Shown here: piece by piece, positions 41,237 through 59,027 of the stretch | Layout of the letters: every line of letters starts with the position of its first letter | Numbering within the stretch: position 1 is the stretch's first letter | From: Dethiobacter alkaliphilus | Lineage (GTDB): Bacteria > Bacillota > Dethiobacteria > DTU022 > UBA8154 | Direction: 5' to 3' | NCBI GenBank assembly: GCA_016841605.1 | Contig: JAENYV010000001.1 | Coordinates: 429,056-493,055, forward strand | Length of the DNA: 64,000 nt | The notes under the pieces: model-generated | Told to the model about the DNA's origin: nothing | Databases searched by the model: none | What the model saw: only the letters and a program-made list of their open reading frames with translations | Made by a program: the position numbers and the translations under genes

Positions 41237-41644
41237 ATGAAAGAAGCAATCAGAACGTTTGTCGAGGGGGATGAACCTTATCAAGTGCAGATATCAGTTA
41301 TCTCCATCAGCGATGACCTCGTTGTCATCGTTGGAGGCGGGGAAAAACCTCATGTGGGTGCTGTGGCGGTCAGTGTCCCGCGTCCCAGCCTGGCTGATTC
41401 TGAGGAAGTCAGTTCTTCTACTTCCGTTTTTACTCTAACCGGGCATAAAGAGGACGATCTGGCCAAGATGCTGGCCGGTAAAATTGCAGCAGCTTTGCAA
41501 AAAAATGTCGTTTTAACCGCGGGGATTCATGTCGATGATATACCGGAGGAGGGTATTAAAAAAGTGCAAAATAATTGCCGGAATGCGCTGGAGCAGTTAA
41601 TAGAAGATTTTTCTTCATCTTTTGAACAGGAAAGGCGTGCATAA
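41237..41644 (+). CDS. LpdD-like prenylated-flavin chaperone (tentative)
   Basis: Motifs 'VVIVGGGEKPHVGAVAV', 'LTGHKEDDLAKMLAGKIA' and 'VLTAGIHVDDIPEEGI' match my recollection of Lactobacillus LpdD ('GGTNPHIGDV', 'HKD', 'TAGIHVN.IT'). The ATG at 41237 follows an AAAGGGTGG RBS. Confidence 0.6.
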   Translation: MKEAIRTFVEGDEPYQVQISVISISDDLVVIVGGGEKPHVGAVAVSVPRPSLADSEEVSSSTSVFTLTGHKEDDLAKMLAGKIAAALQKNVVLTAGIHVDDIPEEGIKKVQNNCRNALEQLIEDFSSSFEQERRA

Positions 41645-41645
41645 G

Positions 41646-42707
41646 ATGCGAGGCCAGCGCAAGCTGGACCACCTGAGGCTGGTCCAAACCCTGGAAGACG
41701 GTCCCGGAAATACGGGTTTCAATGACATTCATTTTATACATAACTGTCTGCCGGAACTAAATTCCCGGGAAATTAACACGGATTGTACTTTCTGTGGGAA
41801 AACTTTTCCTTTTCCCTTGATGATCAATGCCATAACCGGTGGGGTTGAGGAAGGGGAAAAAGTTAACCGCTCTCTGGCCGGAGCGGCGCGGCATCTGGGT
41901 ATCCCCATGGCGGTTGGGTCTCAGGCCGCTGCCCTGGAAGCGGAAGAAACTTACTCCACCTATCAGGTGGTCAGAAAAGAGAATCCCGACGGTTTCATTA
42001 TCGCCAATCTTTCCCCAGGGGTTTCTCCGGAAAATGCTCTGACAGCAGTGGAAATGATCCGGGCCGACGCTCTTCAGCTTCACCTTAATATTCCCCAGGA
42101 AGCGATGATGCCCCGGGGAGAGGGGGATTCCTTTTTCAGGGGTTATCTGGATAATATTCGCCGTATTGCCGAATCTGTTTCCGTGCCTGTGATCGTTAAG
42201 GAGGTCGGTTTCGGCATTGCCCGGGAGGAAGCTCTCCGGCTGCTGGATACGGGGATTGCAGCTTTGGATATAGGAGGAAAAGGAGGGACGAATTTTATCC
42301 GGGTGGAGGGAGAGAGGTCTCATCCGGAGGAAGGGGAGCCTTTTTTCCATTGGGGTATTCCCACGGCGGTTTCACTTGTAGAAGTAGTTGAGGCCGTTGA
42401 CTTCAAACTAGAGATTGTAGCCAGCGGAGGGATTCGGAGCGGACTGGATATTGCCAGAGTTCTCAGCCTGGGAGCCGGTATAGCCGGCGTTGCAGGTCCC
42501 CTGGTCCGGTGTTATTACGGGGAAGGGGAAGAGAGTATCATTAAATACCTTTCTGCGCTGGAAAAGCAGCTCAGACAGGTGATGCTCATGCAGGGTGCAA
42601 AAGATATCTACCAGCTGCGAAAAAGGCCCCTGGTTATCTTAGGTGAAACAGGTCAGTGGCTGGAAAGGAGAGGGATACGGGTTAATCATTTTGCCCTGCG
42701 AGGGTAG
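41646..42707 (+). CDS. fni: Type 2 (FMN-dependent) isopentenyl-diphosphate delta-isomerase
   Basis: Motifs are 'MINAITGG', 'VIVKEVGFGI', 'DIGGKGGTNF' and 'VASGGIRSGLD'. The ATG lies 1 nt after the upstream stop codon. Confidence 0.9.
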   Translation: MRGQRKLDHLRLVQTLEDGPGNTGFNDIHFIHNCLPELNSREINTDCTFCGKTFPFPLMINAITGGVEEGEKVNRSLAGAARHLGIPMAVGSQAAALEAEETYSTYQVVRKENPDGFIIANLSPGVSPENALTAVEMIRADALQLHLNIPQEAMMPRGEGDSFFRGYLDNIRRIAESVSVPVIVKEVGFGIAREEALRLLDTGIAALDIGGKGGTNFIRVEGERSHPEEGEPFFHWGIPTAVSLVEVVEAVDFKLEIVASGGIRSGLDIARVLSLGAGIAGVAGPLVRCYYGEGEESIIKYLSALEKQLRQVMLMQGAKDIYQLRKRPLVILGETGQWLERRGIRVNHFALRG

Positions 42708-42750
42708 AAATGAGAAGGCTAAGGAAGAAAAGGTAGGCAAATGCTAAACA

Positions 42751-42788
42751 AAAAAAAAGGGCAGGTTAGAAACCCGCCCTTTTTTTTT
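42751..42788. terminator. Bidirectional intrinsic terminator between fni and the satP-like gene
   Basis: An upstream A-run precedes the stem GGGCAGGTT/AACCCGCCC (1 mismatch), and T9 follows. Confidence 0.7.
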
Positions 42789-42887: not shown

Positions 42888-43502
42888 TTAAGATGCAACA
42901 TTCTTTGATTCCGGTACCCCGCCTGGTTGGAATAAAGGTGAACCTATGGGCAGTAAAGGCTTATTGAACATTTCATTTAAGAATAGGGCACAGGCCATGT
43001 AAAGCATACCCAGAGCAAAAATAAGCAGACAATACCATCCTATTGTTCCTGCTCCTGCCCCGAGCACTCCCGCACCTGCAAATCCTACGAGCCATAGTCC
43101 GAGGTCGAGCAAGAGAACAAGAGTGAATAAAAACCAGCTTACAAGGCCGCAAGCGATAAAAAAGGCTGCCACATAAACAGCAACAACTAAAAATCCAACG
43201 CCTGATACAGCAGCGGAAACAGCATCGGTTTTAATCCATATTTTAACAATTTCTCCAAATGCCGGAGTAATACATAACATAAAGCCGAAAACTAATAGTG
43301 GTGTGGCAAAAAGCAAGCCGCCTCTTTTAAATTCGATTATACCGGTAATTACCTGAACTAACCCTCCAAATATTAGCCAACCGATAAGAAGAGGTGAAGG
43401 TTCGATCCATCCAAGGTTTGTCATTGCTAGCGGTATAACAACAGTGCATAAACCCATAATTCCCGCAGTTGCAGGATTCGCCCAAGTCATTTGGTTATTC
43501 AT
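42888..43502 (-). CDS. satP: GPR1/FUN34/YaaH (AceTr) family acetate/succinate channel
   Basis: Motifs are 'WANPATAGIMGL', 'FGGLVQVITGIIEFKRGG' and a C-terminal 'LNEMFNKPLLPIG'. The protein is collinear with E. coli SatP as I remember it. Confidence 0.75.
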   Translation of the reverse strand: MNNQMTWANPATAGIMGLCTVVIPLAMTNLGWIEPSPLLIGWLIFGGLVQVITGIIEFKRGGLLFATPLLVFGFMLCITPAFGEIVKIWIKTDAVSAAVSGVGFLVVAVYVAAFFIACGLVSWFLFTLVLLLDLGLWLVGFAGAGVLGAGAGTIGWYCLLIFALGMLYMACALFLNEMFNKPLLPIGSPLFQPGGVPESKNVAS

Positions 43503-44055: not shown

Positions 44056-45405
44056 ATGAGTTTTAAAGATCTGCGTGAGTTTATGAATCATTTAAGAGTA
44101 CATAATCAACTTTTGGAGGTGGATCAGCCGCTTTCTCCTTATTTTGAAATAGGTGCCGCACTTCGTTATCTGGACCGGGGGGACTCCGACCGAGCTGTTT
44201 ATTTTCCCAATGTAGTTGACTATTCCAGCCCTGTCGTAGGTAATCTTCTGGGCAGCTATGAGCGGATTGCTATGGCGTTGGGCGTGGAAAAGGACCAGCT
44301 TTTAGCGGAGTTTACTTCACGTACAAAAAACATGATTAAACCTCTTTTAGTTGAGCAAAGTCCCGTCGAAGAGGTCGTCTATCGGCAAGAAATCGATTTA
44401 ATGAAGATTCTTCCTGTTTTAACTCACCATGCCAAGGATACCGGTCCGTACCTGACTTCCGCGTTGTTGGTTTCCTCCGACCCGGAAACAGGAGAGCGGG
44501 GGATGGGGATTCATCGAATTCTTGTCAGGGGGAAAAACGAAATAGGGATTTTTCTCTATAATCCACCGATCAGGACCTTTTTCGATAAAGCGGAGGCTAT
44601 GGGCAAACCGCTCGATATCGCTGTTGTGTCAGGGGTCGAGCCCGCTCTATTTCTATCATCAATAGTTCCCATCAAAAATGAAAAAACAGATAAATTTGAA
44701 GTGGCCGGGGGGTTGAGAGGGGAACCGGTAGAGCTTTTTACCTGCGGAGAGAACCAACTTCAGGTTCCGGCTCAGGCTGAGTTTGTCTTGTTAGGTCAGG
44801 TGCTGCCCGGGGTTAGAAAAGAGGAAGGTCCTTTTGGGGAATCATCCGGTTACTACCTGACATACCATAATCCCGTCGCTTTAATCCATACGGTGATGCA
44901 CAGACGTAATCCTATTTACCATGCATTAATGCCTTTTAACAAGGAAAACGACCTGCTGCTGAACTTGATCTGGGAATATTCCGTAGGAAAGGATCTAAAG
45001 GAGAAAATACCTTCATTAACTGATTTTCGTCTAACTTCTGTTCTGGGGATGAGTGCTTTGCTGCAAATTGAAAAAACAGCGGAGAATCAGCCGAGGGAAA
45101 TTCTGGAATATATTTTAACTACAAACCCCCTGATTAAGAGTGCAATTATAGTGGATACCGATGTAGATCTTTCCCGGTGGGACGATATAAACTGGGCGCT
45201 TTCTACTCGTTTTCAACCCCATGCGGATCTATTTATCCTCAATGATATGGAGGGGTACCCACTGGATCCGTCAGCTAAAAATTTAGTTACTTCCAAGTGG
45301 GGAATCGACGCCACTGTGCCTTTGGCAGAGAAAAGCCTTTTTGAAAAAGTGGTAGTGCCTGCGGATGTTATGAAGAAGGTTAGCGGAATGTTGAAAAATA
45401 TATAA
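44056..45405 (+). CDS. UbiD-family (prFMN-dependent) decarboxylase, short form (449 aa)
   Basis: Motifs are 'DPETGERGMGIHR', 'EEGPFGESSGYY' and 'IIVDTDVD'. The ATG follows a strong RBS, AGGGGAGG. Confidence 0.85.
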   Translation: MSFKDLREFMNHLRVHNQLLEVDQPLSPYFEIGAALRYLDRGDSDRAVYFPNVVDYSSPVVGNLLGSYERIAMALGVEKDQLLAEFTSRTKNMIKPLLVEQSPVEEVVYRQEIDLMKILPVLTHHAKDTGPYLTSALLVSSDPETGERGMGIHRILVRGKNEIGIFLYNPPIRTFFDKAEAMGKPLDIAVVSGVEPALFLSSIVPIKNEKTDKFEVAGGLRGEPVELFTCGENQLQVPAQAEFVLLGQVLPGVRKEEGPFGESSGYYLTYHNPVALIHTVMHRRNPIYHALMPFNKENDLLLNLIWEYSVGKDLKEKIPSLTDFRLTSVLGMSALLQIEKTAENQPREILEYILTTNPLIKSAIIVDTDVDLSRWDDINWALSTRFQPHADLFILNDMEGYPLDPSAKNLVTSKWGIDATVPLAEKSLFEKVVVPADVMKKVSGMLKNI

Positions 45406-45424: not shown

Positions 45425-46510
45425 ATGACAGCCAAAGTAATGACAATAAACGGAACAATTCAAAGCGGAAGAGGAGAAGCAGGGCAGTTTATGGAGATCG
45501 ATTGGGTTAGGGAACAGTTCCGGCAAATAAGCGGTTTTGTTTCTTATCCCGGGACTGTTAACCTGGCAATTAACTCGATGGATGCCGATTTCATTCGCCA
45601 GCTAGCCTGTGCGCGGGGGGTGAGGGTGATTCCCCCTGCCGGGGCGGATTCGTTCTGTGAAGCCCGTATTCTTTTACTGGGTGTGGAGGACCAGCCTGCT
45701 GCCCTGGTTTTCCCTATGGTAAATGACTATTATGAGAATACGGCCGAGATAATTGCCCCGGTCAAACTTAAAACACACCTGGGAAAAGAAGATGGCGATG
45801 CTTTAATGGTGAGATTGATGGTACCGGAAAAATTGGCTCTTCCCAAGGGCATTATTTTTGACCTGGACGGGACGCTCATTGATTCCATAGAACTTTATTA
45901 TAGTATCCTCTGTGAAGGGTTGCGGCATTTCAACCTGCCTCTTCCGGAGAGAGCATGGATTATGGAGATTATGGGCGCAGGAACGGGCTTCTGGGAGGCA
46001 TGGGAGAGTATTACTGCCAATAAAGAGGAAGAATTTCGCAAGCAGAGCATGGCTCTTTTCGAGGAAATATGGGCCCGCCGCTATGACAGGGAGGTCAGGC
46101 TTTTTCCCGGGGTGTCCGAGCTACTTGCCCGCCTGCATAAAACCGATGTCAAAATGGGTGTGGTTACATCATCTTTTTATGTAAAAAAAATGAATTTGTT
46201 CGGCCAAAATGGTATGAACTATCACGAACTTTTTCAATCCATCATTACAAAAAGAGATACAGTAAAGAAAAAACCCGATCCCGAACCGATCAGGCGCTGT
46301 CTGAAACAAATGGGGTTGGAAAGCAAGGACTGCATCTGTGTGGGGGATTCCCCCTGCGACATTGCTGCCGGGCGGGATTGTGAAATGCTGACGATAGGAC
46401 TATTGACCGGGACAGGAACACGACAAAATCTCTCCAAAGAGGGTGCCGATTTGATTCTCGACGATGTTACCCGATTACCGGAATTTATTAATATAGAAAA
46501 AGTTCTTTAA
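45425..46510 (+). CDS. Fusion of an archaeal-type CTP-dependent riboflavin kinase domain (N) with a HAD-IA phosphatase domain (C)
   Basis: The N-terminal domain shows 'INGTIQSGRGEAGQFM', 'GFVSYPGTVNL' and 'AEIIAPVKLKTHLGKEDGD', collinear with MJ0056-type RibK. The C-terminal domain shows 'IIFDLDGTLIDS', 'KKKPDPEP' and 'VGDSPCDIAAG'. Confidence 0.75.
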   Translation: MTAKVMTINGTIQSGRGEAGQFMEIDWVREQFRQISGFVSYPGTVNLAINSMDADFIRQLACARGVRVIPPAGADSFCEARILLLGVEDQPAALVFPMVNDYYENTAEIIAPVKLKTHLGKEDGDALMVRLMVPEKLALPKGIIFDLDGTLIDSIELYYSILCEGLRHFNLPLPERAWIMEIMGAGTGFWEAWESITANKEEEFRKQSMALFEEIWARRYDREVRLFPGVSELLARLHKTDVKMGVVTSSFYVKKMNLFGQNGMNYHELFQSIITKRDTVKKKPDPEPIRRCLKQMGLESKDCICVGDSPCDIAAGRDCEMLTIGLLTGTGTRQNLSKEGADLILDDVTRLPEFINIEKVL

Positions 46511-46558: not shown

Positions 46559-47140
46559 ATGGAAGAGATGGAATTTTATGCGGGAAGCAAAAGGGATGTC
46601 AATAAAGGTTACTGGATGAGCTTTGAGAATCATTCCAGGCTGGAAGATACAAAAAAGAAGGTCTATTCACGGTGCGTTCCCTGTTTGGAAAAGCTTTACG
46701 AGCAATTGGGCAATGCTCCTGACCGGCTGGTTCTGGAAGAGCCCTTAAGCTGCTGGAAAGTGGTAGTGGTTCTGGAAAGCGAGGAAGAGTGTCTCTCTCT
46801 GCTGGAAGCCTATCAGGAAGAGAAATTTCCCCTTTCAAAAAGTTTGCGCGGCCGGATGGGGACAAGGGATAGGGAGAGCCCGGGTGTAGTTCTTATCTTT
46901 CATATTCACGATGAAGAGCAAAGGGATGAGCTTTTTGCCGATATGGAGAAGCTGGCCGAAAAAATTAATCCGAACTATAAAATTTTTGTGGAACGGGGCT
47001 GTGGAGATCTATACGGCGCTCTTTGTGGAGATTGGAACAAATGGCAAGAAACAACTCCCATTAAAAATTCTTCTATTATTCCTTTTGTCAGGGAAAAAGT
47101 TGCAAAATTACTGCGTGGGGAATACAATACGACAGATTAA
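46559..47140 (+). CDS. Hypothetical protein (no recognisable family; Cys pairs C39/C42 and C156/C164 in ORF numbering)
   Basis: The 193-aa ORF lies between the RibK-HAD gene and ubiX. Coding status is supported only by length and context. Confidence 0.4.
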   Translation: MEEMEFYAGSKRDVNKGYWMSFENHSRLEDTKKKVYSRCVPCLEKLYEQLGNAPDRLVLEEPLSCWKVVVVLESEEECLSLLEAYQEEKFPLSKSLRGRMGTRDRESPGVVLIFHIHDEEQRDELFADMEKLAEKINPNYKIFVERGCGDLYGALCGDWNKWQETTPIKNSSIIPFVREKVAKLLRGEYNTTD

Positions 47141-47303: not shown

Positions 47304-47897
47304 TTATATGGCCTCTTTTCTTTTTATCTTCTCGATATATTCAGCACCGCGCCAGCGGTTGAACAGATCGTGAGTAAGGTCAAATTGATCCAGAGCTTTT
47401 CCAACTGTCTGATTAATAACATCATCAATAGTTTTGGGCAAATTATAGAAGGCAGGCATAGGCGGCAAAATCAGTCCTCCATTTTCTGCCACTGCCGACA
47501 TCAACTTTAAATGGCCCAGGTGGAGAGGAGTCTCTCTAACTATGAGGACTAGTTTTTTCTTTTCCTTTAACATCACATCTGCAGCCCTTACCAGCAGGTT
47601 TGAGTTAAAAGAATTGGCTATGGCAGACAGACTTCTAATGGAGCAGGGCGCGACAATCATTCCCTGTATTTTAAAAGAACCGCTGGAGATAGAAGCTCCA
47701 ATATCATTGATATCATGTAACTCGGTAGCCATATCTTCGACTTCCTGGACAGTATAGTCGGTCTCCAGTTCAATAGTTCTTTTAGCGGCGTCTGTGAGCA
47801 CAAGGTGGACTTTCACACCAAGGTGGTGTAATGTTTCTACAATTCTGATACCGTATATGGCTCCTGTCGCTCCTGATATACCAACCGCTAGCCTCAC
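47304..47897 (-). CDS. ubiX: Flavin prenyltransferase UbiX
   Basis: Motifs are 'RLAVGISGATGAIYGIR' and 'MIVAPCSIRSLSAIANS'. GTG start after an AAGGAGG RBS. Confidence 0.92.
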   Translation of the reverse strand: MRLAVGISGATGAIYGIRIVETLHHLGVKVHLVLTDAAKRTIELETDYTVQEVEDMATELHDINDIGASISSGSFKIQGMIVAPCSIRSLSAIANSFNSNLLVRAADVMLKEKKKLVLIVRETPLHLGHLKLMSAVAENGGLILPPMPAFYNLPKTIDDVINQTVGKALDQFDLTHDLFNRWRGAEYIEKIKRKEAI

Positions 47898-48036: not shown

Positions 48037-48291
48037 TTACAGATAGCGTTCGGGAACAATACTAACTTCCTTGACAACCTGGATGGAATAAGGCTGATTA
48101 TGGACCTGCCCTCTTCCAAAACGGACCTGTAATTTCTCGGGATATTTATCCGCATCCGGAGAAACCATCGCCATTACGTGCTTGTAAGCATACTTTTGGA
48201 GTCCCGGCGATAAATCCCTGACCGACAGTTTAATTTCCTTTCCTTCCGGTAGATCTGCAAGACTATTTATAAAGACGTCATATTTGAACAT
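48037..48291 (-). CDS. ppcD: Small (about 10 kDa) subunit, PpcD-like by size and position
   Basis: The 84-aa product runs from the ATG at 48291, which is preceded by GGAAGGAG. The ORF track opens at 48309. It lies immediately after the second UbiD-like gene. No family motif was recognised. Confidence 0.5.
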   Translation of the reverse strand: MFKYDVFINSLADLPEGKEIKLSVRDLSPGLQKYAYKHVMAMVSPDADKYPEKLQVRFGRGQVHNQPYSIQVVKEVSIVPERYL

Positions 48292-48308
48292 TTTAGCAAC
48301 TCCTTCCA

Positions 48309-49748
48309 TTAAGACTTAAATCCATATTTTTCCCAGTTGGCAAGAACCTTGTCCTGGAGTTCCTGGGGATAAACAGTTTTAAAGGAAACCAGACTTGGAA
48401 CCTCACTGAATGAATCCCAGTCCAGCGGGAAGGTGCAGTCAAAGAGAACTTTCGGTCCGACGGACTTGATACGCTCTGCAGCACTGAGGAAGGGATAGAG
48501 AGGAGTCCCCACTCCCTGCCAGATGTGAATCCCGGTACCCGGATGGCACTTGGTTGTCCAGGCATGTAAAACCTCGTTAAAATTATAGATATCGCATTTG
48601 TCATCAACAACTACAACCATATGGAACCAGGGGCCCAGTTTGCTGCCAAAAACTGTCTGGGCAATCTGCGCAGCTATATTGGTATAAATCGGCTTTACAC
48701 CGACGATAACAAGGTGATGGGTAGACTCAGGCATCATAAATACACCTGTGATGGGTATACCCTGGCTGCGGAGAAGTTTATCCATCTCCAGACCGAGGGA
48801 GAAGGAGCGGAGCAACTGCCCTTCATCGGTGGGCACGCCCATATTGGAGATAGTGGTAATGGGGTCATTGCGGAAAGTTATGGCTTTGACACGATAACAG
48901 GTCCTCATATCCCTGGGGGAAGTGCGGTAACCGGTGTATTCGCCAAAGGGTCCTTCTTCCAGGGAGACATCGGGAAGGATTTCTCCCTCAATAATTATCT
49001 CCGCATTAGCCGGAACTTCCAGGTCTACGGTTTCGCATTTGACCAACTCGATGGGTTTCCCCATCAGCATACCTGCAAAATCAGTCTCGGGAATGGGTGA
49101 AGGAGCCGAGGCCGCGATAGCTGAAATGGGATCCGGTCCGATAACTGTGGCAAAAGGCATCGGTTTTCCCGCGGGCTTATATTTGCCGTGGAAGACCTTG
49201 CCGCCATCAGAAAAGGGAAGCAGGGGACCGGTCATTGTTTTGCCGTCATAAACCATCTGGCGGTACATTCCCCAGTTGACATCGCCGTTGTCGGGATCTT
49301 TCGTAACAATAAAGTGCCAGGTGCAGAGGTAACGTCCCCCATCTCCTTCGTGCACAATAGGGGCAGGGAGGAGGTTGAGTATATCCGCTTCGTCACCGAT
49401 GAAAATGTTTTCCTTGCAGGGAGCTTTGTCCTTATCAACCAGGACAGGCTTTACAGGAGCTTTATTTGTTGTCCTTTCCAGGTAGACATTGGCAATTTCA
49501 GGGATACTGCTGTTAGGGTCCAGTCCCATAGCAATGGCCAGCTTCCGGTAGGTTGACAGAGGGGCCCCGAAGTAGCGGTGGCCGGGATACTCTTTAATTT
49601 TATTCATTAACGGGGATTGTAATTTTTCTTCGCAAACTTTGCGGACAATGGCGCCGGCTTCCATATCCCAGTCAACTTCCTGGTTGATGGTTACTAATTC
49701 GCCTGCAGCTTCTAAAGCTTTAATATATTCACGATTATCTTTGTACAC
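48309..49748 (-). CDS. ppcA: UbiD-family carboxylase subunit (phenylphosphate carboxylase alpha/beta-like)
   Basis: The 479-aa protein carries 'DVNWGMYRQ', 'EEGPFGEYTGY' and 'VVVVDDKCDI'. The A versus B assignment rests on gene order only. Confidence 0.6.
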   Translation of the reverse strand: MYKDNREYIKALEAAGELVTINQEVDWDMEAGAIVRKVCEEKLQSPLMNKIKEYPGHRYFGAPLSTYRKLAIAMGLDPNSSIPEIANVYLERTTNKAPVKPVLVDKDKAPCKENIFIGDEADILNLLPAPIVHEGDGGRYLCTWHFIVTKDPDNGDVNWGMYRQMVYDGKTMTGPLLPFSDGGKVFHGKYKPAGKPMPFATVIGPDPISAIAASAPSPIPETDFAGMLMGKPIELVKCETVDLEVPANAEIIIEGEILPDVSLEEGPFGEYTGYRTSPRDMRTCYRVKAITFRNDPITTISNMGVPTDEGQLLRSFSLGLEMDKLLRSQGIPITGVFMMPESTHHLVIVGVKPIYTNIAAQIAQTVFGSKLGPWFHMVVVVDDKCDIYNFNEVLHAWTTKCHPGTGIHIWQGVGTPLYPFLSAAERIKSVGPKVLFDCTFPLDWDSFSEVPSLVSFKTVYPQELQDKVLANWEKYGFKS

Positions 49749-51951: not shown

Positions 51952-53151
51952 TTAGTTCATCTCCATAAAGGAGTCAATTATTGCATCGACAAAACTATCA
52001 TCCAGAACATGGGCATCGACTCTTTTTACGGTAACATTTGGCTTGGCGTTGGCCTCGCAAGCCTCAACAAATCCCATGTTGGCATCAGGATCATAAAGGG
52101 GTCCGCCTTCACGGTCATGGACACAGAAGCCCTTCATGGGAAGGAGAATAGTAACCGGCCCGAGGCTTTTATTTAACTTTTCGCACATAACTTCTCCGAG
52201 TTTTTTAAATTCTTCTCTGGAGGTCCGGTATAAGGTGATGGCAGCGTTGTGGACATGCGTTACACGGCCTGCGAATTGTTCCTGTCCCGGACCGTGGACG
52301 ATAAAATCTGACGAGCCGGGGACGTAGACCTGCGGAAGGCCTTTTTTACCGGCATTTTCGTAACGGTCGGCCGGGGCCTGGTAAAGACCGCCCGCAATAC
52401 TGTCAACCCATTCGTGGAGAGAAATCTCTACTACTCCACCGTCAATCATGCCGTCCGCTGTAAGTTGTTCCAGAGCTGTTCCCCCTACGCCTGTGGTATG
52501 GAAAGTGACAGTTTCAAATCCTTTCTCGGCAAGTCTGTTTCTGACCCTGGCGGCGGTTCCTTCAGTTGTTCCCAGCGTTGTAATGGCGACAAGCTTTTTA
52601 TTCTCTTTATCAATCTGGGGAGCATTGACCATGCCCACCACCGCAGCGGCTGCATTAGTAAAGACTTTTCTGGTCAGGCGGTTCAGGCCGGCCACATCTG
52701 TTACCGAATGGTACATCAGGATATCTTTCGTGCCGACAGCAGCGCTGACAACATTCCCCACCGCGGCTACTGTTGATATCTGAACTTTCGGCACTCCAAA
52801 GGGAAGAGAACGCATAACCGCGGATCCCAGACCGGTTCCCATAGCTCCGCCGAGGCTGAGGACTCCGTCAAATTTACCTTGACTGAACAGATCTTGTGCT
52901 ATCGTTATAGCTCCCCCGATCATTGTCCCTAAAGCGTCACCCTCGGAAGGAATCTTTTGAACTTCCGCGTGAGTAGTACCGGCTGCTACGGCAACCTCAT
53001 CACGTGTTATATCAGGCGTAAAATAGGGTTCTCCCAAAATTCCGCAATCCATAACCATAACATTGGCTCCAAGAGCCGTAATTTGTTCTTTTAAGTAAGT
53101 AACTTCTACTCCTTTTGTATCTAAAACAGAAACAATAAGTACAGTTTTCAT
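51952..53151 (-). CDS. UPF0261 / Tm-1-like ATP-binding domain protein
   Basis: Motifs 'VLIVSVLDTKGVEVTYLKEQI' and 'LSLGGAMGTGLGSAVMRSLPFGVPKV' are typical of UPF0261. It is the first gene of the ppc-like operon. Confidence 0.75.
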   Translation of the reverse strand: MKTVLIVSVLDTKGVEVTYLKEQITALGANVMVMDCGILGEPYFTPDITRDEVAVAAGTTHAEVQKIPSEGDALGTMIGGAITIAQDLFSQGKFDGVLSLGGAMGTGLGSAVMRSLPFGVPKVQISTVAAVGNVVSAAVGTKDILMYHSVTDVAGLNRLTRKVFTNAAAAVVGMVNAPQIDKENKKLVAITTLGTTEGTAARVRNRLAEKGFETVTFHTTGVGGTALEQLTADGMIDGGVVEISLHEWVDSIAGGLYQAPADRYENAGKKGLPQVYVPGSSDFIVHGPGQEQFAGRVTHVHNAAITLYRTSREEFKKLGEVMCEKLNKSLGPVTILLPMKGFCVHDREGGPLYDPDANMGFVEACEANAKPNVTVKRVDAHVLDDSFVDAIIDSFMEMN

Positions 53152-53886: not shown

Positions 53887-53915
53887 TTGACACTGCCTAA
53901 ACGTTAGGTTAAATT
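53887..53915 (+). promoter_or_regulatory. Putative promoter facing the GAF-PucR regulator gene; shares TAGTTATTGACA with the two minus-strand promoters
   Basis: TTGACA (53887-53892) is separated by 17 nt from TAAATT. Confidence 0.35.
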
Positions 53916-54342: not shown

Positions 54343-56184
54343 ATGTTAGCAGAACCTGAAAATTTATGGCAAGAGCTTCAAAAAGAACGAAAGCGCGTCA
54401 TTCAATGGCGTATCTTAACTGAAGCGGCAGTTCTTTTAAATTCAGAGTTGCACTCTGAAAGCTTACCTCTAAAGTTTATAAAATGCGCAAAAAAATTAGT
54501 ATCAGCTAACGAAGCGATGGTAGCTCTTAAAGAAGAAAAAAAAGAGGGCTTAAAAATACTAAAGCACTATACTTTGGACAATGAAGCCAAAGAAAAACAG
54601 GTTGAAGAAAGTGGAAAGAGTCCCTATGGAGCGATAGACGTAATCTTGAAGAATGAGGAAATAATAAACAGAAATGCCTCCCAGTTTACGTCTCAAGAGC
54701 TTTGCGGCTTCTCCGCTATTAAAAGAAACCTGCTCGGCGTTCCTCTTTATGCCGGAGGAGAAGTAACCGGTGCTCTCTTAATGGCCAACAAAAGCGGAGA
54801 AGAGTCTTTTACCCAGGACGATCAGGAGTTACTCTTAATTCTGGCATCACAGCTCAGTATTGCTTTAGAAAATTCCAGGCTGTATGAAAAGACAGATGAG
54901 AAATTGCAAATAAAAGTTGACGAATTGGAGCATGTTAATAAAATTTTAGTAAAACAAACTAAGATTTTGGAAAAATCAATTGAGATTCATAAACAATTAA
55001 CTGAATTGGTTTTAAGAGGTAAAGGAATTGAAGCGATTTGCAGGACATTGACAGCTTTTATTGGTTGCCCTGTTCAAATAGAGGATCATAATTTTAATGT
55101 TAAAGCAACAACGATAAACAATGATCTGACGAATTTATTTCTTAGCGGTAAGGATTTACTGGAAAATAAAGACTATACAATGCAAGTTAAAGATCTTTTT
55201 CAGGAAAGAAAAATTATCAAAATTAAGTTGGATACAGCGGCAATACAATATGTGGTTCCTATTGTTGCCGGAGAGCAAATTTTAGGAATAATAACTACTG
55301 TTCTTGTTAATAAACCCCTAAGACCGCTTTATCTTGTGGCCATGGAACAAGGAGCCACGATTATCGCGCTGGAGATGTTGAAAGAAAGGTCTGCTGCTGA
55401 GCAAAACAGGCGTTTAAAAGAAAACTTTTTAGAGCAGGTTTTGGATGGAGATTTTGAATCCGAAGAGCAGGTACAGCACCGTGCCCTGCAATTAAATTTT
55501 GGATTAAATAATATTTATCAAATAATGACAGTTGATATGGAACCGGGGGATAATGATCAAAGCAGACCGGAGTTATACCAGGAGATTCGAGAATTTTGCG
55601 TTGATTCTTTTGCCAACAGTATTGTTGTGACCAAAAATAACTTACTATTAATTATGGTTACTTTCGAGAAAAAGAATCAAGAGAGAGCAATTGCCAAACC
55701 GGCAAATATGTTAAAAGAATTTCTGATCAAATTGGTGGAGAACGGAACCTGGAGAATCGCTATTGGTACAAGCTGCACCAAAATAACTGATTGTGCGGTA
55801 TCTTATCGTAAGGCTGTTACTACTCTGGATATTATGAAAGCATTACGATTGACGAACAAAATTGTTTACTACAATAATCTAGGTATTTTCTCATTAATTG
55901 AAATAAATCCTCAACGTTTTGCTGATTTTACCCAAAAAACCCTTGGACTCTTGATGGAATATGATCAAAAACATAAAACACAGCTCGTTGATACCTTAAA
56001 TCTTTACTTTAATTATAACAGCAATGTTTTAAAAGCATCTCGAGAAGGTTACTTAAATCCAAGCACAATGAAGTACAGACTGCGTAGAATTCAGGAAATT
56101 ACAGGATTAGATTTAAAGGACGCGGATGTGGGCTTACAATTGCAACTTGCTATGAGACTGATTAATTGCGGATGTTTTCAATAA
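54343..56184 (+). CDS. GAF-domain / PucR (CdaR)-family transcriptional regulator
   Basis: The GAF domain reads 'LLGVPLYAGGEVTGALLMANKSGEESFTQDDQELLLILASQLSIALEN'. The C-terminal PucR HTH reads 'LVDTLNLYFNYNSNVLKASREGYLNPSTMKYRLRRIQEITGLDL'. Confidence 0.8.
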   Translation: MLAEPENLWQELQKERKRVIQWRILTEAAVLLNSELHSESLPLKFIKCAKKLVSANEAMVALKEEKKEGLKILKHYTLDNEAKEKQVEESGKSPYGAIDVILKNEEIINRNASQFTSQELCGFSAIKRNLLGVPLYAGGEVTGALLMANKSGEESFTQDDQELLLILASQLSIALENSRLYEKTDEKLQIKVDELEHVNKILVKQTKILEKSIEIHKQLTELVLRGKGIEAICRTLTAFIGCPVQIEDHNFNVKATTINNDLTNLFLSGKDLLENKDYTMQVKDLFQERKIIKIKLDTAAIQYVVPIVAGEQILGIITTVLVNKPLRPLYLVAMEQGATIIALEMLKERSAAEQNRRLKENFLEQVLDGDFESEEQVQHRALQLNFGLNNIYQIMTVDMEPGDNDQSRPELYQEIREFCVDSFANSIVVTKNNLLLIMVTFEKKNQERAIAKPANMLKEFLIKLVENGTWRIAIGTSCTKITDCAVSYRKAVTTLDIMKALRLTNKIVYYNNLGIFSLIEINPQRFADFTQKTLGLLMEYDQKHKTQLVDTLNLYFNYNSNVLKASREGYLNPSTMKYRLRRIQEITGLDLKDADVGLQLQLAMRLINCGCFQ

Positions 56185-57216: not shown

Positions 57217-57469
57217 TTATCCACCTCTTTCTTTAAAAGCTATAGTAATTATACAAAAGAAATTTTGACAATACAAGAAATAAAAATAGGAAACACATCG
57301 AAAAATAGAAATATTTGCACAATGGTTCGGAGTAATTTTTTTAACACATTGAAAAATTATAATATGTTAAATAGAGTAAATAGTATTTGACTATTATTGA
57401 TTGCCTATGCTACTTTTGAGCCAAGAATTTAAAGATTTAAAAAGTAAAATTAACTGAGAGGTGAAGAAA

Positions 57470-58855
57470 ATGGCCAAAGATTTACGAGATTTTTTAGAAA
57501 AAGTTAAAAATGAGTTACCTGATGATTACGTCGAGGTTACACGCTCTGTTAATCCGGACAATTTCGATATAACAGCGCTTCTGGAGCATTTGACCAAACA
57601 AAATAAGTTTCCCCTGGTTTTATTTAAAAATCCCAAAAACCTAAAGGGGGAAGACGTAGAAATTCAGGTTGTATCCAATGTTTTTGCGAAAAGAGAAAGA
57701 TGTGCCCTTGCTCTTGATTGGCCTGCGGACAGATCCAACCTTCCTTTAAGCCTGGAATATGCCCGTTTGGAACGGGAGGTAGTTCCTCCGTTGGAAATTG
57801 GGAAGAATGATGCTCCGGTTAAAGAAGTAATTCTACGGGGGACCGAAGCAGATCCTGCAATTTTACCCGGAGTGCGGCATTATGAGATGGATTTGTGTCC
57901 GGTTTTTACCATGACACTTGTGATGAAAGATCCGGACACCGGGATCTATGATATTACCTTTGCGAAAACATTTTACAAAGGTTCACAAAGAATGGGAGCA
58001 TCCATTCATACTCCCCACCTTGAACGGATTTTAAATAAATATGAGGAACGAAAAGAGCCTGCTCCCGTAGTACAGATTCTTGGACATCATCCCGCATTCT
58101 ATCTCGGTTCACTGGCATTAAGCCCTTACGATGCCGATGATTATGCCGGAGTCGGTTCTTTTTTACATGAACCCCTTCGACTTGTCGAATCAGAAACCTG
58201 GGGAAAAGATTTTCTTGTTCCTGCAGATGCGGAAATAATAATGGAAGGAGAAATCATGCCCGGCGATAAAGAAATAGTAGATCCGTTTGGTGAAGTGACA
58301 AGACATTACCAGGCCCAATGCATACGTCAAGCAATGAATGTGACAGCAATCACGCGGCGCAAAGGCGCCATCATGCAGGACATTTTTTCCGGTCACGAAG
58401 GACACTGGAACCTGGGTGCCTTACCGAAAGAAGGCAGCGTATATAATGCTGTAAACCGCCGATATGGAAATGTCAAGGCTGTGCATATGCCCCATTCCGG
58501 GATCGGAAGGCTGGCATGCTATATCTCTATTGACAAAAAGCGTGAAGGAGACGCCAAAATTGCCGGTATGGCAGCGCTTTTAGAGTCATGGACTTTTCAG
58601 GTTGTCGTTGTGGTCGATGATGATATTGATGTCTTTAATGAAAAAGAAGTGGTCTGGGCTATATTAACCATGGTAGATCCCAAACGGGATATAACCATGG
58701 TGGACAATGTTCATACTGTTTTTACCACTGCTATGGGACATAACAAAATTATTATTGATGCAACAAAACCGCTTGATAGGGCCTTCCCTGAACGTTTTAA
58801 AGTTCCGGAAAGCGCTATGCAGCGGATAAAATTAGATGAGTGGATCAAACTTTAA
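57470..58855 (+). CDS. Divergent UbiD-family decarboxylase
   Basis: The protein shows 'DPDTGIYDITFAK' where paralogs have 'DPDSGKVNLGTYR', and 'VDPFGEVTRHY' where paralogs have 'EGPFGEYTGYY'. 'VVVVVDDDIDV' is conserved. The ATG at 57470 follows a GAGAGGTGA RBS. Confidence 0.8.
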   Translation: MAKDLRDFLEKVKNELPDDYVEVTRSVNPDNFDITALLEHLTKQNKFPLVLFKNPKNLKGEDVEIQVVSNVFAKRERCALALDWPADRSNLPLSLEYARLEREVVPPLEIGKNDAPVKEVILRGTEADPAILPGVRHYEMDLCPVFTMTLVMKDPDTGIYDITFAKTFYKGSQRMGASIHTPHLERILNKYEERKEPAPVVQILGHHPAFYLGSLALSPYDADDYAGVGSFLHEPLRLVESETWGKDFLVPADAEIIMEGEIMPGDKEIVDPFGEVTRHYQAQCIRQAMNVTAITRRKGAIMQDIFSGHEGHWNLGALPKEGSVYNAVNRRYGNVKAVHMPHSGIGRLACYISIDKKREGDAKIAGMAALLESWTFQVVVVVDDDIDVFNEKEVVWAILTMVDPKRDITMVDNVHTVFTTAMGHNKIIIDATKPLDRAFPERFKVPESAMQRIKLDEWIKL

Positions 58856-58874
58856 ATAAGGGAGGTAATAGTAA

Positions 58875-59027
58875 ATGGAAAGGATTTTTTGGGTTAAATG
58901 TCCGAAATGCGGTGATCGTTTTTGCTGTGATTATGAATTACGACATTCGAAACTCAAGTTAATCTGCCCGTTTTGTCTTGAACAGTTCCTTGATGTAGAT
59001 AGTTTGGAAATTGATGAACGTCTTTAG
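58875..59027 (+). CDS. Unlisted 50-aa Cys4 zinc-ribbon mini-protein
   Basis: Its sequence is MERIFWVKCPKCGDRFCCDYELRHSKLKLICPFCLEQFLDVDSLEIDERL. The GGGAGG RBS lies 9 nt upstream. The gene starts 19 nt after the UbiD stop codon. CPKC and CPFC form a knuckle pair. Confidence 0.6.
   Translation: MERIFWVKCPKCGDRFCCDYELRHSKLKLICPFCLEQFLDVDSLEIDERL

What the first reader, a model, noticed from the sequence alone, without database searches (positions are those of the whole stretch)
41237..59027. A co-localised supply chain for prenylated FMN wrapped around four UbiD-family (de)carboxylases
Within 18 kb I read four UbiD paralogs (44056-45405, 48309-49748, 50434-51858, 57470-58855).

The same region holds every activity needed to make their cofactor from common metabolites:
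- A type-2 IPP isomerase (fni), which converts IPP to DMAPP.
- A HAD phosphatase domain, a candidate for converting DMAPP to DMAP.
- An archaeal-type CTP-dependent riboflavin kinase domain fused to that HAD, which converts riboflavin to FMN.
- UbiX, which joins FMN and a dimethylallyl phosphate into prFMN.
- An LpdD-like protein, a family reported to chaperone prFMN.

Bacterial UbiX enzymes characterised so far use dimethylallyl monophosphate, and the physiological source of that monophosphate is not settled. A dedicated phosphatase linked to the flavin kinase would be a new answer. I know of no description of such a complete cofactor island. The linkage itself is seen in the sequence. The pathway reading is inference.
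Basis: partly seen in the sequence, partly recalled or inferred. Interest (0 to 1): 0.8.

Follow-up and report, generated by a model that had tools for sequence, protein, structure and literature searches.

The report
Conserved prenylated-flavin supply cassette, phenol island

Summary

- Two of the UbiDs are the alpha and beta subunits of phenylphosphate carboxylase, with gamma and delta beside them.
- A 193-aa protein with four invariant cysteines (46559-47140), with no Pfam family and no fold match, is a core member.
- A NudF-type Nudix gene (62413-62958) closes the island.

The linkage is not chance. The order lpdD-fni-[ubiD]-ribK/HAD-hyp193, optionally followed by ubiX-nudix, recurs in about 20 species-level Bacillota genomes. 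The RibK, hyp193 and UbiX genes are also linked in Syntrophorhabdus aromaticivorans and other lineages, as separate genes and in other orders.

The claim that the HAD converts DMAPP to DMAP is weak:
- This UbiX has Gln at the position that marks DMAPP-using enzymes.
- The premise that bacterial UbiX enzymes use DMAP is wrong.
- The HAD tracks RibK, not the isomerase.

I found no published description of this cassette. Every function given here is inferred. I rate it a new variant of a known system, with interest about 0.6.

The parts
41228..41644 (+). LpdD-like prFMNH2 chaperone candidate (138 aa; first ATG at 41237)
   Evidence: PF21758 scores 128.8 bits. It matches solved LpdD 8pzh at E 3.5e-7, and the counterparts of His35 and His61 are kept. 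It is the first gene of the cassette in L003, L085, L086 and 13 other loci.
41622..42707 (+). Type-2 isopentenyl-diphosphate isomerase (Fni); probable ATG start at 41646
   Evidence: TIGR02151 equivalog scores 364.6 bits against a cut-off of 281.3. It is 53-74% identical and in the same position in the related cassettes.
42888..43502 (-). Gpr1/Fun34/YaaH-like membrane protein, a syntenic companion of unknown role
   Evidence: Weak match to AceTr. Orthologs at 74-78% identity flank the cassette in L085, L086, L091, L093 and L098.
44056..45405 (+). UbiD-family (de)carboxylase 'UbiD1', embedded in the cassette; a likely client enzyme
   Evidence: Carries the three UbiD domains and passes TIGR00148 at 309.7 bits. 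The closest solved structure is 6h6v/6h6x at E 1e-83. The EGPFGE and GIHR motifs are kept. It sits between fni and ribK/HAD in L085, L086, L091, L092 and L098.
45425..46510 (+). Fusion of an archaeal-type (CTP-dependent) riboflavin kinase domain (aa 3-130) with a HAD-IA phosphatase domain (aa 141-355)
   Evidence: PF01982 scores 76 bits and HAD_2 scores 120 bits. The RibK domain aligns end to end with MJ0056, and the motifs GxxxSGxGE, PGT(L/V)NL and EIIAP are kept. HAD motifs are invariant across homologs: DLDGT, T248, K283 and GD308..D312. About 60 protein clusters share this architecture.
46559..47140 (+). hyp193: an uncharacterised protein with four invariant cysteines, a core cassette member
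   Evidence: No Pfam or NCBIfam match. It has 52 clusters at 90% identity, and only 78 representatives among 1.84 billion proteins. C39, C42, C65 and C148 are invariant. The AF2 model has pLDDT 88 but no Foldseek PDB hit at E<=0.001. It follows ribK/HAD in 15 of 18 loci. In P0176 it is fused to RibK.
47304..47897 (-). UbiX flavin prenyltransferase, last gene of the ppc operon
   Evidence: NF004685 scores 256.7 bits against a cut-off of 188. The closest solved structures are A. niger PAD1 6qlg (E 3e-52) and O157 1sbz. Gln163 aligns with An Gln203 and O157 His164.
48037..48309 (-). Phenylphosphate carboxylase gamma subunit
   Evidence: PF09662 scores 96 bits against a cut-off of 25. TIGR02725 scores 101.5 bits, below its equivalog cut-off of 135.6.
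48309..49748 (-). Phenylphosphate carboxylase alpha subunit (UbiD family)
   Evidence: TIGR02723 scores 725.2 bits against a cut-off of 564.6. It is 91% identical to its counterpart in L085.
49824..50366 (-). KdsC-type HAD-IIIA phosphatase, the counterpart of the delta subunit
   Evidence: TIGR01670 scores 143 bits against a cut-off of 107. TIGR02726 (delta equivalog) scores 148 bits, below its cut-off of 282. It lies between beta and alpha, as in the relatives.
50434..51858 (-). Phenylphosphate carboxylase beta subunit (UbiD family)
   Evidence: TIGR02724 scores 712.5 bits against a cut-off of 469.
51952..53151 (-). UPF0261 protein, first gene of the ppc operon
   Evidence: Matches PF06792 and PF23189. 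It holds the same position in L085. In Syntrophorhabdus it lies next to hyp193.
54343..56184 (+). GAF-PucR transcriptional regulator, the likely regulator of the island
   Evidence: Pfam domains GAF, GGDEF_2 and HTH_30. Orthologs at 61-71% identity sit inside or beside the pps/ppc clusters in 7 relatives.
57461..58855 (+). Divergent UbiD-family protein 'UbiD4', first gene of an operon with a TAXI-TRAP transporter
   Evidence: The UbiD domains are present but weaker, at 126.7 bits. The active-site motifs are altered: VDPFGE instead of EGPFGE, and ITFAK instead of G-x-(H/Y)-R.
59228..62324 (+). TAXI solute-binding protein (59228-60304) and fused TRAP permease (60393-62324)
   Evidence: TIGR02122 scores 163 bits and TIGR02123 scores 605.7 bits.
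62413..62958 (+). NudF/ADP-ribose-pyrophosphatase-type Nudix hydrolase, ortholog of the Nudix that follows ubiX in the compact cassettes
   Evidence: It is 62% identical to the L003 Nudix and matches PF00293. Closest solved structures are 8zr8 and 8wv3 at E about 1e-41. UbiX-Nudix follows hyp193 in 8 loci. A Nudix gene also follows the RibK-hyp193 fusion in L133.

Best explanation
The region is an anaerobic phenol-carboxylation island. On the minus strand it carries UPF0261-ppcB-ppcD-ppcA-ppcC-ubiX. It also carries two further UbiD paralogs, regulators and a TAXI-TRAP transporter.

This island has grown inside an older, self-contained cassette for prenylated-FMN (prFMN) biogenesis. That cassette is lpdD-fni-ribK/HAD-hyp193-ubiX-nudF, and it occupies the same chromosomal site in relatives.

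Proposed working of the cassette (all steps inferred):
- Fni raises the DMAPP pool.
- The RibK domain makes FMN from riboflavin, using CTP.
- UbiX is of the Gln163 type, like the DMAPP-using enzymes. It joins reduced FMN and DMAPP directly into prFMNH2.
- LpdD holds prFMNH2 and loads it onto the apo-UbiD clients: Ppc alpha and beta, UbiD1 and perhaps UbiD4.
- The HAD domain most likely serves the flavin branch. My first choice is dephosphorylation of 5-amino-6-ribitylaminouracil 5'-phosphate (ARPP), the riboflavin-pathway step that rib operons lack. My second choice is removal of the pyrophosphate that UbiX releases. I consider a DMAP-producing role less likely.
- hyp193 works directly with RibK and UbiX. 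I think it binds a metal or an iron-sulfur cluster through its four cysteines and handles the redox state or hand-over of the flavin. That could mean reducing FMN to FMNH2 for UbiX, or oxidising prFMNH2 to the active form without oxygen.

Shown: gene identities, conserved motifs and conserved linkage. Inferred: every biochemical step.
For: **Gene identities.** Family assignments pass curated cut-offs for Ppc alpha and beta, UbiX, Fni, LpdD (Pfam) and the UbiD domains.

**Conserved linkage in Bacillota.**
- L085 holds the same 12 genes, all on one strand.
- L003, L004, L097, L102 and L103 hold the compact form lpdD-fni-ribK/HAD-hyp193-ubiX-nudix with no aromatic-degradation genes nearby. The cassette is therefore autonomous.
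- Nine loci place it next to the phenylphosphate synthase and carboxylase genes.

**Nesting.** The flanks match the compact form. The polysaccharide deacetylase (window 35682-36326) is 77% identical to that of L003. The aminotransferase after the Nudix (63105-63998) is 65% identical.

**Linkage outside Bacillota.**
- S. aromaticivorans UI has ppcA-ppcC-ubiD-ubiX-ribK, with hyp193 6 kb away.
- L090 has ppc...ubiD-ubiX-ribK facing hyp193.
- L132 has ubiD-ubiD-ubiX...HAD-ribK-...-hyp193.
- The Aquificota locus L130 has ribK/HAD-fni-hyp193.

**RibK as the hub.** It occurs as a RibK-HAD fusion, as a HAD-RibK fusion (P0067), as adjacent genes in both orders (L131, L132), and as a RibK-hyp193 fusion (P0176).

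**UbiX type.** Gln163, and Gln or His in all orthologs.

**HAD on the flavin side.** In L132 a 50%-identical paralog of the HAD lies just downstream of ribBA.

**LpdD.** Counterparts of His35 and His61 are kept. LpdD binds prFMNH2 and activates apo-UbiD (PMC10865409).
Against: - No biochemical data exist for any of these proteins.
- The RibK domain scores below the NCBIfam equivalog cut-off (51 bits against 168). Riboflavin and CTP as substrates are therefore assumed.
- The HAD's substrate cannot be read from its sequence. Its best family matches, PpaX at 109 bits and phosphoglycolate phosphatase at 104 bits, are all below cut-off.
- Position 181 of UbiX is the only known specificity marker. 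An F181Q change did not convert the P. aeruginosa enzyme to DMAPP use.
- hyp193 also occurs in Syntrophorhabdus-type loci with no UbiX or UbiD within 10 kb. There it sits next to Hdr-like iron-sulfur proteins.
- The RibK/HAD genes of Desulfobacula and related loci have no UbiX within 10 kb.
- The Nudix may be only a housekeeping neighbour.
- Most of the Bacillota loci are related uncultured genomes, so part of the synteny is inherited rather than independently selected.
- The RibK-hyp193 fusion rests on one 1.8-kb contig.
Confidence: 0.7

Rival explanations
1. The HAD domain is a dedicated phosphatase that turns DMAPP into DMAP. It is fused to the flavokinase so that both UbiX substrates are made side by side.
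For: - The HAD catalytic motifs are intact and invariant.
- The HAD is co-conserved with Fni and UbiX in most Bacillota cassettes.
- Its best family and structure matches include HAD enzymes that cleave P-O-P bonds: PpaX at 109 bits, and the BT2127-type diphosphatase 3qu2 at E 4e-12.
- Cassettes without a neighbouring Nudix (layouts A and B) always have the HAD.
Against: - UbiX has Gln163, the residue of the DMAPP-specific A. niger enzyme. No cassette UbiX has the Phe seen in the DMAP-only enzyme.
- The premise that bacterial UbiX enzymes use DMAP is contradicted by E. coli K12 (DMAPP only) and O157 (both).
- The HAD pairs with RibK in loci with no Fni or UbiX in the 8-10 kb read on either side: L001, L087, L088 and L131.
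- RibK sits next to UbiX without this HAD in L090 and L116.
- L101 and L104 have the fusion but no Fni.
- A HAD paralog lies next to ribBA in L132.
- Five loci have both the HAD and the Nudix.
Confidence: 0.2
2. RibK/HAD, and perhaps the Nudix, form a general flavin-homeostasis module. The HAD would act as an FMN hydrolase or ARPP phosphatase, and the Nudix as an FAD pyrophosphatase. The plant enzymes AtFMN/FHy and AtNUDX23 are the precedents. On this view the module is not dedicated to prFMN. It sits near UbiX only because anaerobic aromatic metabolism uses a lot of flavin.
For: - A HAD FMN hydrolase fused to a riboflavin kinase, and a Nudix FAD pyrophosphatase, are known in plants (PMC9678776).
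- HAD-RibK pairs stand alone next to molybdenum enzymes in Desulfobacula, L087 and L131.
- In L132 the pair lies near ribBA and chorismate synthase.
Against: - In Bacillota the fusion lies inside an operon bounded by lpdD and ubiX, both specific to prFMN.
- RibK is immediately next to UbiX in three unrelated layouts: L090, L116 and the type C cassettes.
- hyp193 is fused to RibK in P0176 and also follows UbiX-containing units.
Confidence: 0.15
3. The gene order is inherited synteny among closely related uncultured Bacillota and carries no functional coupling.
For: - Most loci are uncultured Dethiobacteria or Syntrophomonadaceae-like genomes.
- They share flanking genes.
- Protein identities are 46-80%.
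Against: - The content is kept while the order changes. There are three layouts, an inversion in the window relative to L085, and both fused and split genes.
- The linkage reappears in Syntrophorhabdus, an Aquificota genome and two unassigned metagenome contigs at 30-45% identity.
Confidence: 0.05

Closest known systems
UbiX-UbiD-LpdD prFMN system (Lactiplantibacillus plantarum lpdBCD gallate decarboxylase; Gahloth et al. 2024, PMC10865409)
   Same: - UbiX prenyltransferase.
- UbiD-family client enzymes.
- A small LpdD-family protein that keeps the metal-binding histidines His35 and His61.
- All three are clustered.
   Different: - This cluster adds a type-2 IPP isomerase, an archaeal-type riboflavin kinase fused to a HAD, a four-cysteine protein of unknown fold and a NudF-type Nudix.
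- The cassette also exists with no UbiD gene nearby.
- The LpdD paper does not mention any of these partner genes.
Phenylphosphate carboxylase of Thauera aromatica (ppcBCAD; Schuhle & Fuchs 2004, from my own knowledge and as cited in PMC10176493)
   Same: - Alpha and beta UbiD-like subunits that pass the equivalog cut-offs.
- A small gamma subunit.
- A KdsC-type HAD delta subunit.
- A neighbouring ubiX and an extra ubiD-like gene.
   Different: - The gene order is B-D-A-C.
- The host is a spore-forming member of the Bacillota.
- No phenylphosphate synthase genes lie within the 64-kb window, although they are adjacent in relatives.
- UPF0261 is the first gene of the operon.
- Gamma and delta score below the equivalog cut-offs.
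Archaeal CTP-dependent riboflavin kinase MJ0056 (PF01982; PDB 2p3m)
   Same: - Full-length alignment (aa 3-130 against 2-129).
- The glycine-rich, PGTLN and EIIAP motifs are conserved.
   Different: - It is bacterial and fused to a HAD-IA domain.
- It scores 51 bits against an equivalog cut-off of 168.
- It sits in a UbiX context rather than a general FMN-synthesis context.
Plant bifunctional AtFMN/FHy (HAD FMN hydrolase fused to a riboflavin kinase; Sandoval & Roje 2005, as cited in PMC9678776)
   Same: A HAD phosphatase and a riboflavin kinase in one polypeptide.
   Different: - The kinase domain is of the unrelated eukaryotic ATP-dependent type.
- The domain order is the reverse.
- The plant enzyme has no connection to prFMN.
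- The sequence relationship between the two HAD domains was not tested here.
PhdC/YclD prFMN maturase (HpaC-like flavin reductase fold; PMC13040415)
   Same: An accessory protein encoded beside ubiX and ubiD that supports cofactor maturation. An HpaC-like gene sits in the ppc operon of L090.
   Different: - The window has no PhdC homolog.
- hyp193 has no detectable sequence or fold similarity to PhdC.
- PhdC was shown to work with oxygen or ferricyanide, whereas these hosts are anaerobes.

Membership tests
UbiD family of prFMN-dependent (de)carboxylases | Three-domain architecture (UbiD_N, UbiD, UbiD_C) | tested here: met
   All four proteins pass the Pfam cut-offs for all three domains.
UbiD family of prFMN-dependent (de)carboxylases | Catalytic E-x4-E motif (EGPFGE) and the conserved Arg in G-x-(H/Y)-R | tested here: inconclusive
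   Kept in UbiD1, PpcA and PpcB. UbiD4 has VDPFGE and ITFAK instead. The motif definitions come from my own knowledge of Fdc1 and UbiD.
UbiD family of prFMN-dependent (de)carboxylases | Binds prFMN and needs it for activity | not testable with these tools
   Requires purified protein.
Phenylphosphate carboxylase (Ppc alpha-beta-gamma-delta) | Alpha and beta subunits that match the equivalog models | tested here: met
   TIGR02723 scores 725 bits (cut-off 565). TIGR02724 scores 712 bits (cut-off 469).
Phenylphosphate carboxylase (Ppc alpha-beta-gamma-delta) | Gamma subunit and HAD-type delta subunit encoded alongside | tested here: inconclusive
   Gamma passes Pfam PF09662 (96 bits) but is below TIGR02725 (101 against 136). 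Delta passes the KdsC subfamily model TIGR01670 but is below TIGR02726 (148 against 282).
Phenylphosphate carboxylase (Ppc alpha-beta-gamma-delta) | Partner phenylphosphate synthase (pps) genes | tested here: not met
   tblastn finds no PPDK_N or PEP-utilizer homolog in the 64-kb window. These genes are adjacent in 11 relatives. They may lie elsewhere in this genome.
UbiX flavin prenyltransferase | Matches the UbiX family model | tested here: met
   NF004685 scores 256.7 bits (cut-off 188). TIGR00421 scores 241.7 bits (cut-off 108.9).
UbiX flavin prenyltransferase | DMAP-only type, marked by Phe at P. aeruginosa position 181 | tested here: not met
   The window has Gln163, which aligns with An Gln203 and O157 His164. 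All 11 related UbiX have Gln or His.
LpdD prFMNH2 chaperone (PF21758) | Family model match and the conserved metal-site histidines His35 and His61 | tested here: met
   PF21758 scores 128.8 bits. In the alignment to 8pzh, GGxxPH and HK(D/E) are conserved.
LpdD prFMNH2 chaperone (PF21758) | Binds reduced prFMN and activates apo-UbiD | not testable with these tools
   Requires anaerobic reconstitution.
Type-2 isopentenyl-diphosphate isomerase | Equivalog model match | tested here: met
   TIGR02151 scores 364.6 bits (cut-off 281.3).
CTP-dependent riboflavin kinase (archaeal RibK, PF01982) | Domain model match and ligand-binding motifs | tested here: met
   PF01982 scores 76 bits (cut-off 25). The domain aligns over its full length with MJ0056, and the motifs are kept.
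CTP-dependent riboflavin kinase (archaeal RibK, PF01982) | Equivalog-level match (ribK_Meth) | tested here: not met
   NF040694 scores 51 bits against a cut-off of 168. It is a divergent bacterial branch, and its substrate and nucleotide specificity are unknown.
HAD-IA phosphatases | Catalytic motifs I-IV | tested here: met
   D146, D148, T248, K283, D308 and D312 are invariant in 12 homologs.
HAD-IA phosphatases | Assignment to a subfamily of known substrate (PpaX, phosphoglycolate phosphatase, BT2127-type diphosphatase) | tested here: not met
   All matches are below their cut-offs: 109 against 218, 104 against 225 and 81 against 245.
NudF / ADP-ribose pyrophosphatase Nudix | Nudix domain and closest similarity to NudF-type enzymes | tested here: met
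   PF00293 scores 72.8 bits. Closest structures are 8zr8, 8wv3 and 5c7q at E 1e-41 to 1e-35. The substrate in this cassette is unknown.

The most novel reading that the evidence does not exclude
hyp193 may be the missing oxygen-independent partner of UbiX in strict anaerobes. On this reading it is a metal or iron-sulfur protein that binds through its four cysteines. It would either reduce FMN to FMNH2 for prenylation, or oxidise prFMNH2 to the active iminium form without O2. It would work in a complex with the RibK-type kinase. How anaerobes mature prFMN is an open question that the LpdD paper itself raises. My evidence does not exclude this reading. The supporting points are four invariant cysteines, a confident model with no fold match, a fusion to RibK, and a position beside UbiX, LpdD and the oxygen-sensitive phenylphosphate carboxylase.
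Probability: 0.15. Interest if true: 0.85.

Novelty: new variant of a known kind. Interest (0 to 1): 0.6.

Why it matters
UbiD enzymes are wanted as reversible (de)carboxylases for CO2 fixation and aromatic chemistry. Many cannot be activated in heterologous hosts.

Three questions are unsettled:
- where cells obtain the prenyl and flavin substrates for UbiX;
- how FMN is kept reduced for the reaction;
- how prFMNH2 is matured without oxygen in anaerobes.

This cassette is a conserved, compact set of candidate helper genes: Fni, RibK/HAD, hyp193, LpdD and NudF. It comes from the organisms that run oxygen-sensitive UbiD carboxylases. The genes can be co-expressed and tested directly. One cultured host, Syntrophorhabdus aromaticivorans UI, carries the split version.

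The finding also marks a small protein family with no known relatives as a likely flavin-cofactor factor. It corrects the assumption that bacterial UbiX enzymes need DMAP.

Tried and rejected
1. The search for related loci with the whole fusion alignment seeded on the generic HAD motif FDLDGT. It returned 80 unrelated HAD loci (L005-L084), which I discarded. I repeated the scan with the hyp193 alignment.
2. An Rfam scan of the whole window at gathering thresholds found nothing, so no FMN riboswitch was detected.
3. For hyp193, a profile search of PDB sequences and a Foldseek search of PDB gave no significant match. The eIF4E-like and ferredoxin-like hits have TM scores below 0.4, and I do not treat them as evidence.
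4. I looked in the window for phenylphosphate synthase, a PhdC/HpaC-type flavin reductase and a DUF89 phosphatase. None is present.
5. I tested whether the roughly 109-aa protein that precedes RibK/HAD in the deltaproteobacterial loci is LpdD-like. It has no family match and no BLAST similarity to LpdD.
6. Literature searches found no paper that links UbiX or prFMN with riboflavin kinase, with IPP isomerase gene clusters, or with Nudix-derived DMAP. The library lacks most subscription journals, so absence there is not proof.
7. The promoter and terminator scan was not above the shuffled background.
8. Schuhle & Fuchs 2004 (PMC438602) could not be opened. Statements about the Thauera enzyme rest on my own knowledge and on its citation in PMC10176493.
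9. I considered that Fni might isomerise isopentenyl monophosphate to DMAP, and that UbiD1 might be a biosynthetic enzyme rather than a client. I have no evidence for either idea and did not pursue them.

Full report
**1. What is in the sequence**

| Coordinates | Strand | Identity | Evidence |
|---|---|---|---|
| 41228-41644 | + | LpdD-like | PF21758, 128.8 bits |
| 41622-42707 | + | Type-2 IPP isomerase (Fni) | TIGR02151, 364.6 bits, cut-off 281.3 |
| 44056-45405 | + | UbiD1 | three UbiD domains |
| 45425-46510 | + | RibK-HAD fusion | PF01982 aa 13-130; HAD_2 aa 143-325 |
| 47304-47897 | - | UbiX | NF004685, 256.7 bits, cut-off 188 |
| 48309-49748 | - | UbiD family | see section 2 |
| 50434-51858 | - | UbiD family | see section 2 |
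| 57461-58855 | + | UbiD4 | three UbiD domains |

The small differences in start coordinates reflect the choice of start codon. ORF 46911-47510 overlaps ubiX on the opposite strand, has no family match, and is spurious. ORF 46559-47140 (193 aa, called hyp193 here) is real (section 4).

**2. Two of the four UbiDs are phenylphosphate carboxylase subunits**

- 48309-49748 passes the alpha-subunit equivalog (TIGR02723, 725 bits, cut-off 565).
- 50434-51858 passes the beta-subunit equivalog (TIGR02724, 712 bits, cut-off 469).
- Between and after them lie a KdsC-type HAD (49824-50366), the counterpart of the delta subunit, and a gamma subunit (48037-48309, PF09662). Both are below their equivalog cut-offs.
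- The minus-strand unit is therefore UPF0261-ppcB-ppcD-ppcA-ppcC-ubiX.
- This is the known carboxylase of anaerobic phenol degradation (Thauera aromatica; my own knowledge, cited in PMC10176493).
- No phenylphosphate synthase genes occur anywhere in the window.
- UbiD1, PpcA and PpcB keep the EGPFGE and G-x-(H/Y)-R motifs. UbiD4 does not.

**3. The linkage is conserved**

The RibK+HAD architecture occurs in about 60 protein clusters. Contexts of seven of them, plus a scan of species-representative genomes with the hyp193 profile (40 loci, tabulated), show three layouts in Bacillota:

- **Layout A (as in the window):** lpdD-fni-ubiD1-ribK/HAD-hyp193. Seen in L085, L086, L091, L092 and L098, and in part in L093. 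L085 carries all twelve genes of the window on one strand, at 69-92% identity.
- **Layout B:** lpdD-fni-ribK/HAD-hyp193 lying back to back with the phenylphosphate synthase genes, followed by ppcB-ppcD-(GAF-PucR)-ppcA-ppcC. Seen in nine loci.
- **Layout C:** lpdD-fni-[ribK/HAD]-hyp193-ubiX-nudix with no aromatic-degradation genes. Seen in eight loci, three of them without the fusion.

Where enough flank exists:

| Gene relative to hyp193 | Loci with the gene | Loci with enough flank |
|---|---|---|
| RibK/HAD upstream | 15 | 18 |
| Fni | 12 | 14 |
| LpdD | 9 | 10 |

Outside Bacillota the linkage reappears with split genes:

- Syntrophorhabdus aromaticivorans UI has ppcA-ppcC-ubiD-ubiX-ribK, with DUF89-hyp193-UPF0261 6 kb away (L116).
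- L090 has ppcB...ppcA-ppcC-ubiD-ubiX-ribK facing hyp193.
- L132 has ubiD-ubiD-ubiX-PNPOx-[IS]-HAD-ribK-methyltransferase-hyp193.
- An Aquificota genome has ribK/HAD-fni-hyp193 (L130).

Random juxtaposition is therefore excluded.

**4. The island is nested in the compact cassette**

- The window has an ortholog (62% identity) of the layout-C Nudix at 62413-62958. This is outside the finding's coordinates.
- The gene after it (63105-63998, aminotransferase) is 65% identical to the L003 gene at the same position.
- The polysaccharide deacetylase at 35682-36326 is 77% identical to the L003 gene upstream of the cassette.
- So ubiD1, the ppc operon, the regulators and ubiD4-TAXI-TRAP appear to have been inserted into an ancestral lpdD-fni-ribK/HAD-hyp193-ubiX-nudF unit.

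**5. RibK is the hub of the accessory genes**

- RibK and the HAD occur in four arrangements: a RibK-HAD fusion; a HAD-RibK fusion (P0067); adjacent genes with RibK first (L131); and adjacent genes with HAD first (L132).
- One protein, P0176, fuses RibK to hyp193 and is followed by a Nudix gene. It comes from a single short contig.
- The RibK domain aligns end to end with the archaeal kinase MJ0056 and keeps its motifs. It is below the equivalog cut-off.

hyp193 itself:

- It is a very small family. It has 52 clusters at 90% identity and 78 representatives among 1.84 billion proteins.
- C39, C42, C65 and C148 are invariant, even in the most distant members and in the fusions.
- Its AlphaFold model is confident (pLDDT 88.3, pTM 0.83).
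- It has no significant sequence or fold match in PDB.

**6. The DMAP question**

- Marshall et al. 2019 (PMC6541611) show otherwise. P. aeruginosa UbiX is DMAP-specific. E. coli K12 UbiX is DMAPP-specific. O157 UbiX uses both. The only identified marker is Pa Phe181, which corresponds to An Gln203 and O157 His164.
- The window's UbiX is closest to the A. niger and O157 enzymes, and it has Gln163 at that position.
- All eleven related UbiX sequences have Gln or His there.
- A phosphatase is therefore not obviously required.
- The HAD follows RibK even where no Fni or UbiX lies within the 8-10 kb read on either side (L001, L087, L088, L131).
- In L132 a 50%-identical paralog of the HAD lies just downstream of ribBA.
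- Its best family matches are PpaX pyrophosphatase, phosphoglycolate phosphatase and the BT2127-type diphosphatase. All are below cut-off.
- The substrate is therefore unresolved. I rank a flavin-branch role first (ARPP phosphatase), then PPi removal, then DMAPP to DMAP.
- Precedents exist in plants for a HAD FMN hydrolase fused to a riboflavin kinase, and for a Nudix FAD pyrophosphatase.
- NudF-type enzymes are also known, from my own knowledge of isopentenol engineering, to hydrolyse DMAPP. The role of the Nudix is therefore open as well.

**7. Most likely working**

- Fni raises the DMAPP pool.
- RibK makes FMN.
- UbiX makes prFMNH2 from FMNH2 and DMAPP.
- LpdD, which keeps His35 and His61, carries prFMNH2 to the apo-UbiD clients, as shown for L. 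plantarum LpdD.
- hyp193 is a redox or hand-over factor for the flavin.
- Only the gene identities, motifs and linkage are shown. Every biochemical step is inferred.

**8. Novelty and caveats**

- I found no paper connecting UbiX or prFMN with a riboflavin kinase, an IPP isomerase gene cluster or this protein family.
- The LpdD paper notes only that unexplained accessory genes accompany ubiD.
- The literature library is incomplete.
- The components belong to known families except hyp193. I therefore class this as a new variant of a known system, the UbiX/UbiD/LpdD prFMN machinery joined to a ppc phenol island.
- Most supporting loci are uncultured genomes.
- The synteny within Bacillota is partly inherited.
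- hyp193 paralogs in Syntrophorhabdus also occur away from UbiX, next to Hdr-like iron-sulfur proteins.

Noticed in passing
window 57461-58855: The fourth UbiD paralog (UbiD4) has altered active-site motifs: VDPFGE in place of EGPFGE, and ITFAK in place of G-x-(H/Y)-R. It heads an operon with a TAXI-TRAP transporter. It may have a different chemistry or be non-catalytic.
   Followed up: partly
window 56305-57213 (minus strand): The LysR-type regulator ORF starts at a TTG that cuts off its DNA-binding helix-turn-helix. The HTH is encoded in the same frame upstream, to about 57213, but no ATG, GTG or TTG precedes it. Either the gene uses a non-canonical start codon or it has lost its start.
   Followed up: partly
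window 53152-54342: A 1.2-kb AT-rich stretch lies between the divergent UPF0261-ppc operon and the GAF-PucR regulator gene. It has no ORF of 40 aa or more except one of 44 aa, and no Rfam match. It is presumably a large regulatory region.
   Followed up: no
window 51952-53151; L085 12285-13502; L116 10692-11912: A UPF0261 protein is the first gene of the ppc operon in the window and in L085. In Syntrophorhabdus it sits directly after hyp193, preceded by a DUF89 damage-control phosphatase. Its role in phenol metabolism or cofactor handling is unknown.
   Followed up: partly
window 1-64000: No phenylphosphate synthase (PPDK_N or PEP-utilizer) genes occur in the window, although 11 related loci have them next to the cassette. 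The closest relative, L085, also lacks them within 10 kb.
   Followed up: partly
window 42888-43502; L085 6231-6848; L086 12033-12656: A Gpr1/Fun34/YaaH-type (acetate-channel-like) membrane protein travels with the cassette at 74-78% identity. It could be a channel for phenol, hydroxybenzoate or another small solute.
   Followed up: no
window 12282-21237: A nitrogenase-type cluster lies here: NifH, four Oxidored_nitro proteins, a radical-SAM protein and an AnfO-family protein. An ammonium transporter follows at 21657-22841. GC content across the window swings between 0.31 and 0.55.
   Followed up: no
window 2876-8788: A 1970-aa surface protein with SLH, YDG, MBG and Listeria-Bacteroides repeat domains.
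   Followed up: no
L001 9654-9983; L087 9666-10004; L131 435-761: A conserved protein of about 109 aa with no family match immediately precedes RibK or RibK/HAD in the deltaproteobacterial-type loci. The copies are 44-72% identical to each other. These loci lie next to xanthine-dehydrogenase-family molybdenum enzymes.
   Followed up: partly
L132 3682-4164 and 12085-14301: A PNPOx-like FMN-binding protein follows ubiX. Further along, ribBA is followed by a 71-aa UbiX fragment and a second HAD paralog, which ties this HAD family to riboflavin synthesis.
   Followed up: partly
L090 17616-18107: An HpaC-type flavin reductase gene lies inside a ppc operon. It belongs to the same broad family as the prFMN maturase PhdC. 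The window has no counterpart.
   Followed up: partly
P0204 (425 aa, metagenomic protein): This protein fuses a hyp193 domain to an N-terminal Pol-beta-type nucleotidyltransferase domain. The four cysteines are kept. It hints at a nucleotide- or flavin-nucleotide-linked function.
   Followed up: no
L122 5336-11159: A second, Syntrophorhabdus-type hyp193 paralog sits beside HdrA- and HdrD-like iron-sulfur flavoproteins and a histidine phosphatase. No UbiX or UbiD lies within 10 kb.
   Followed up: partly
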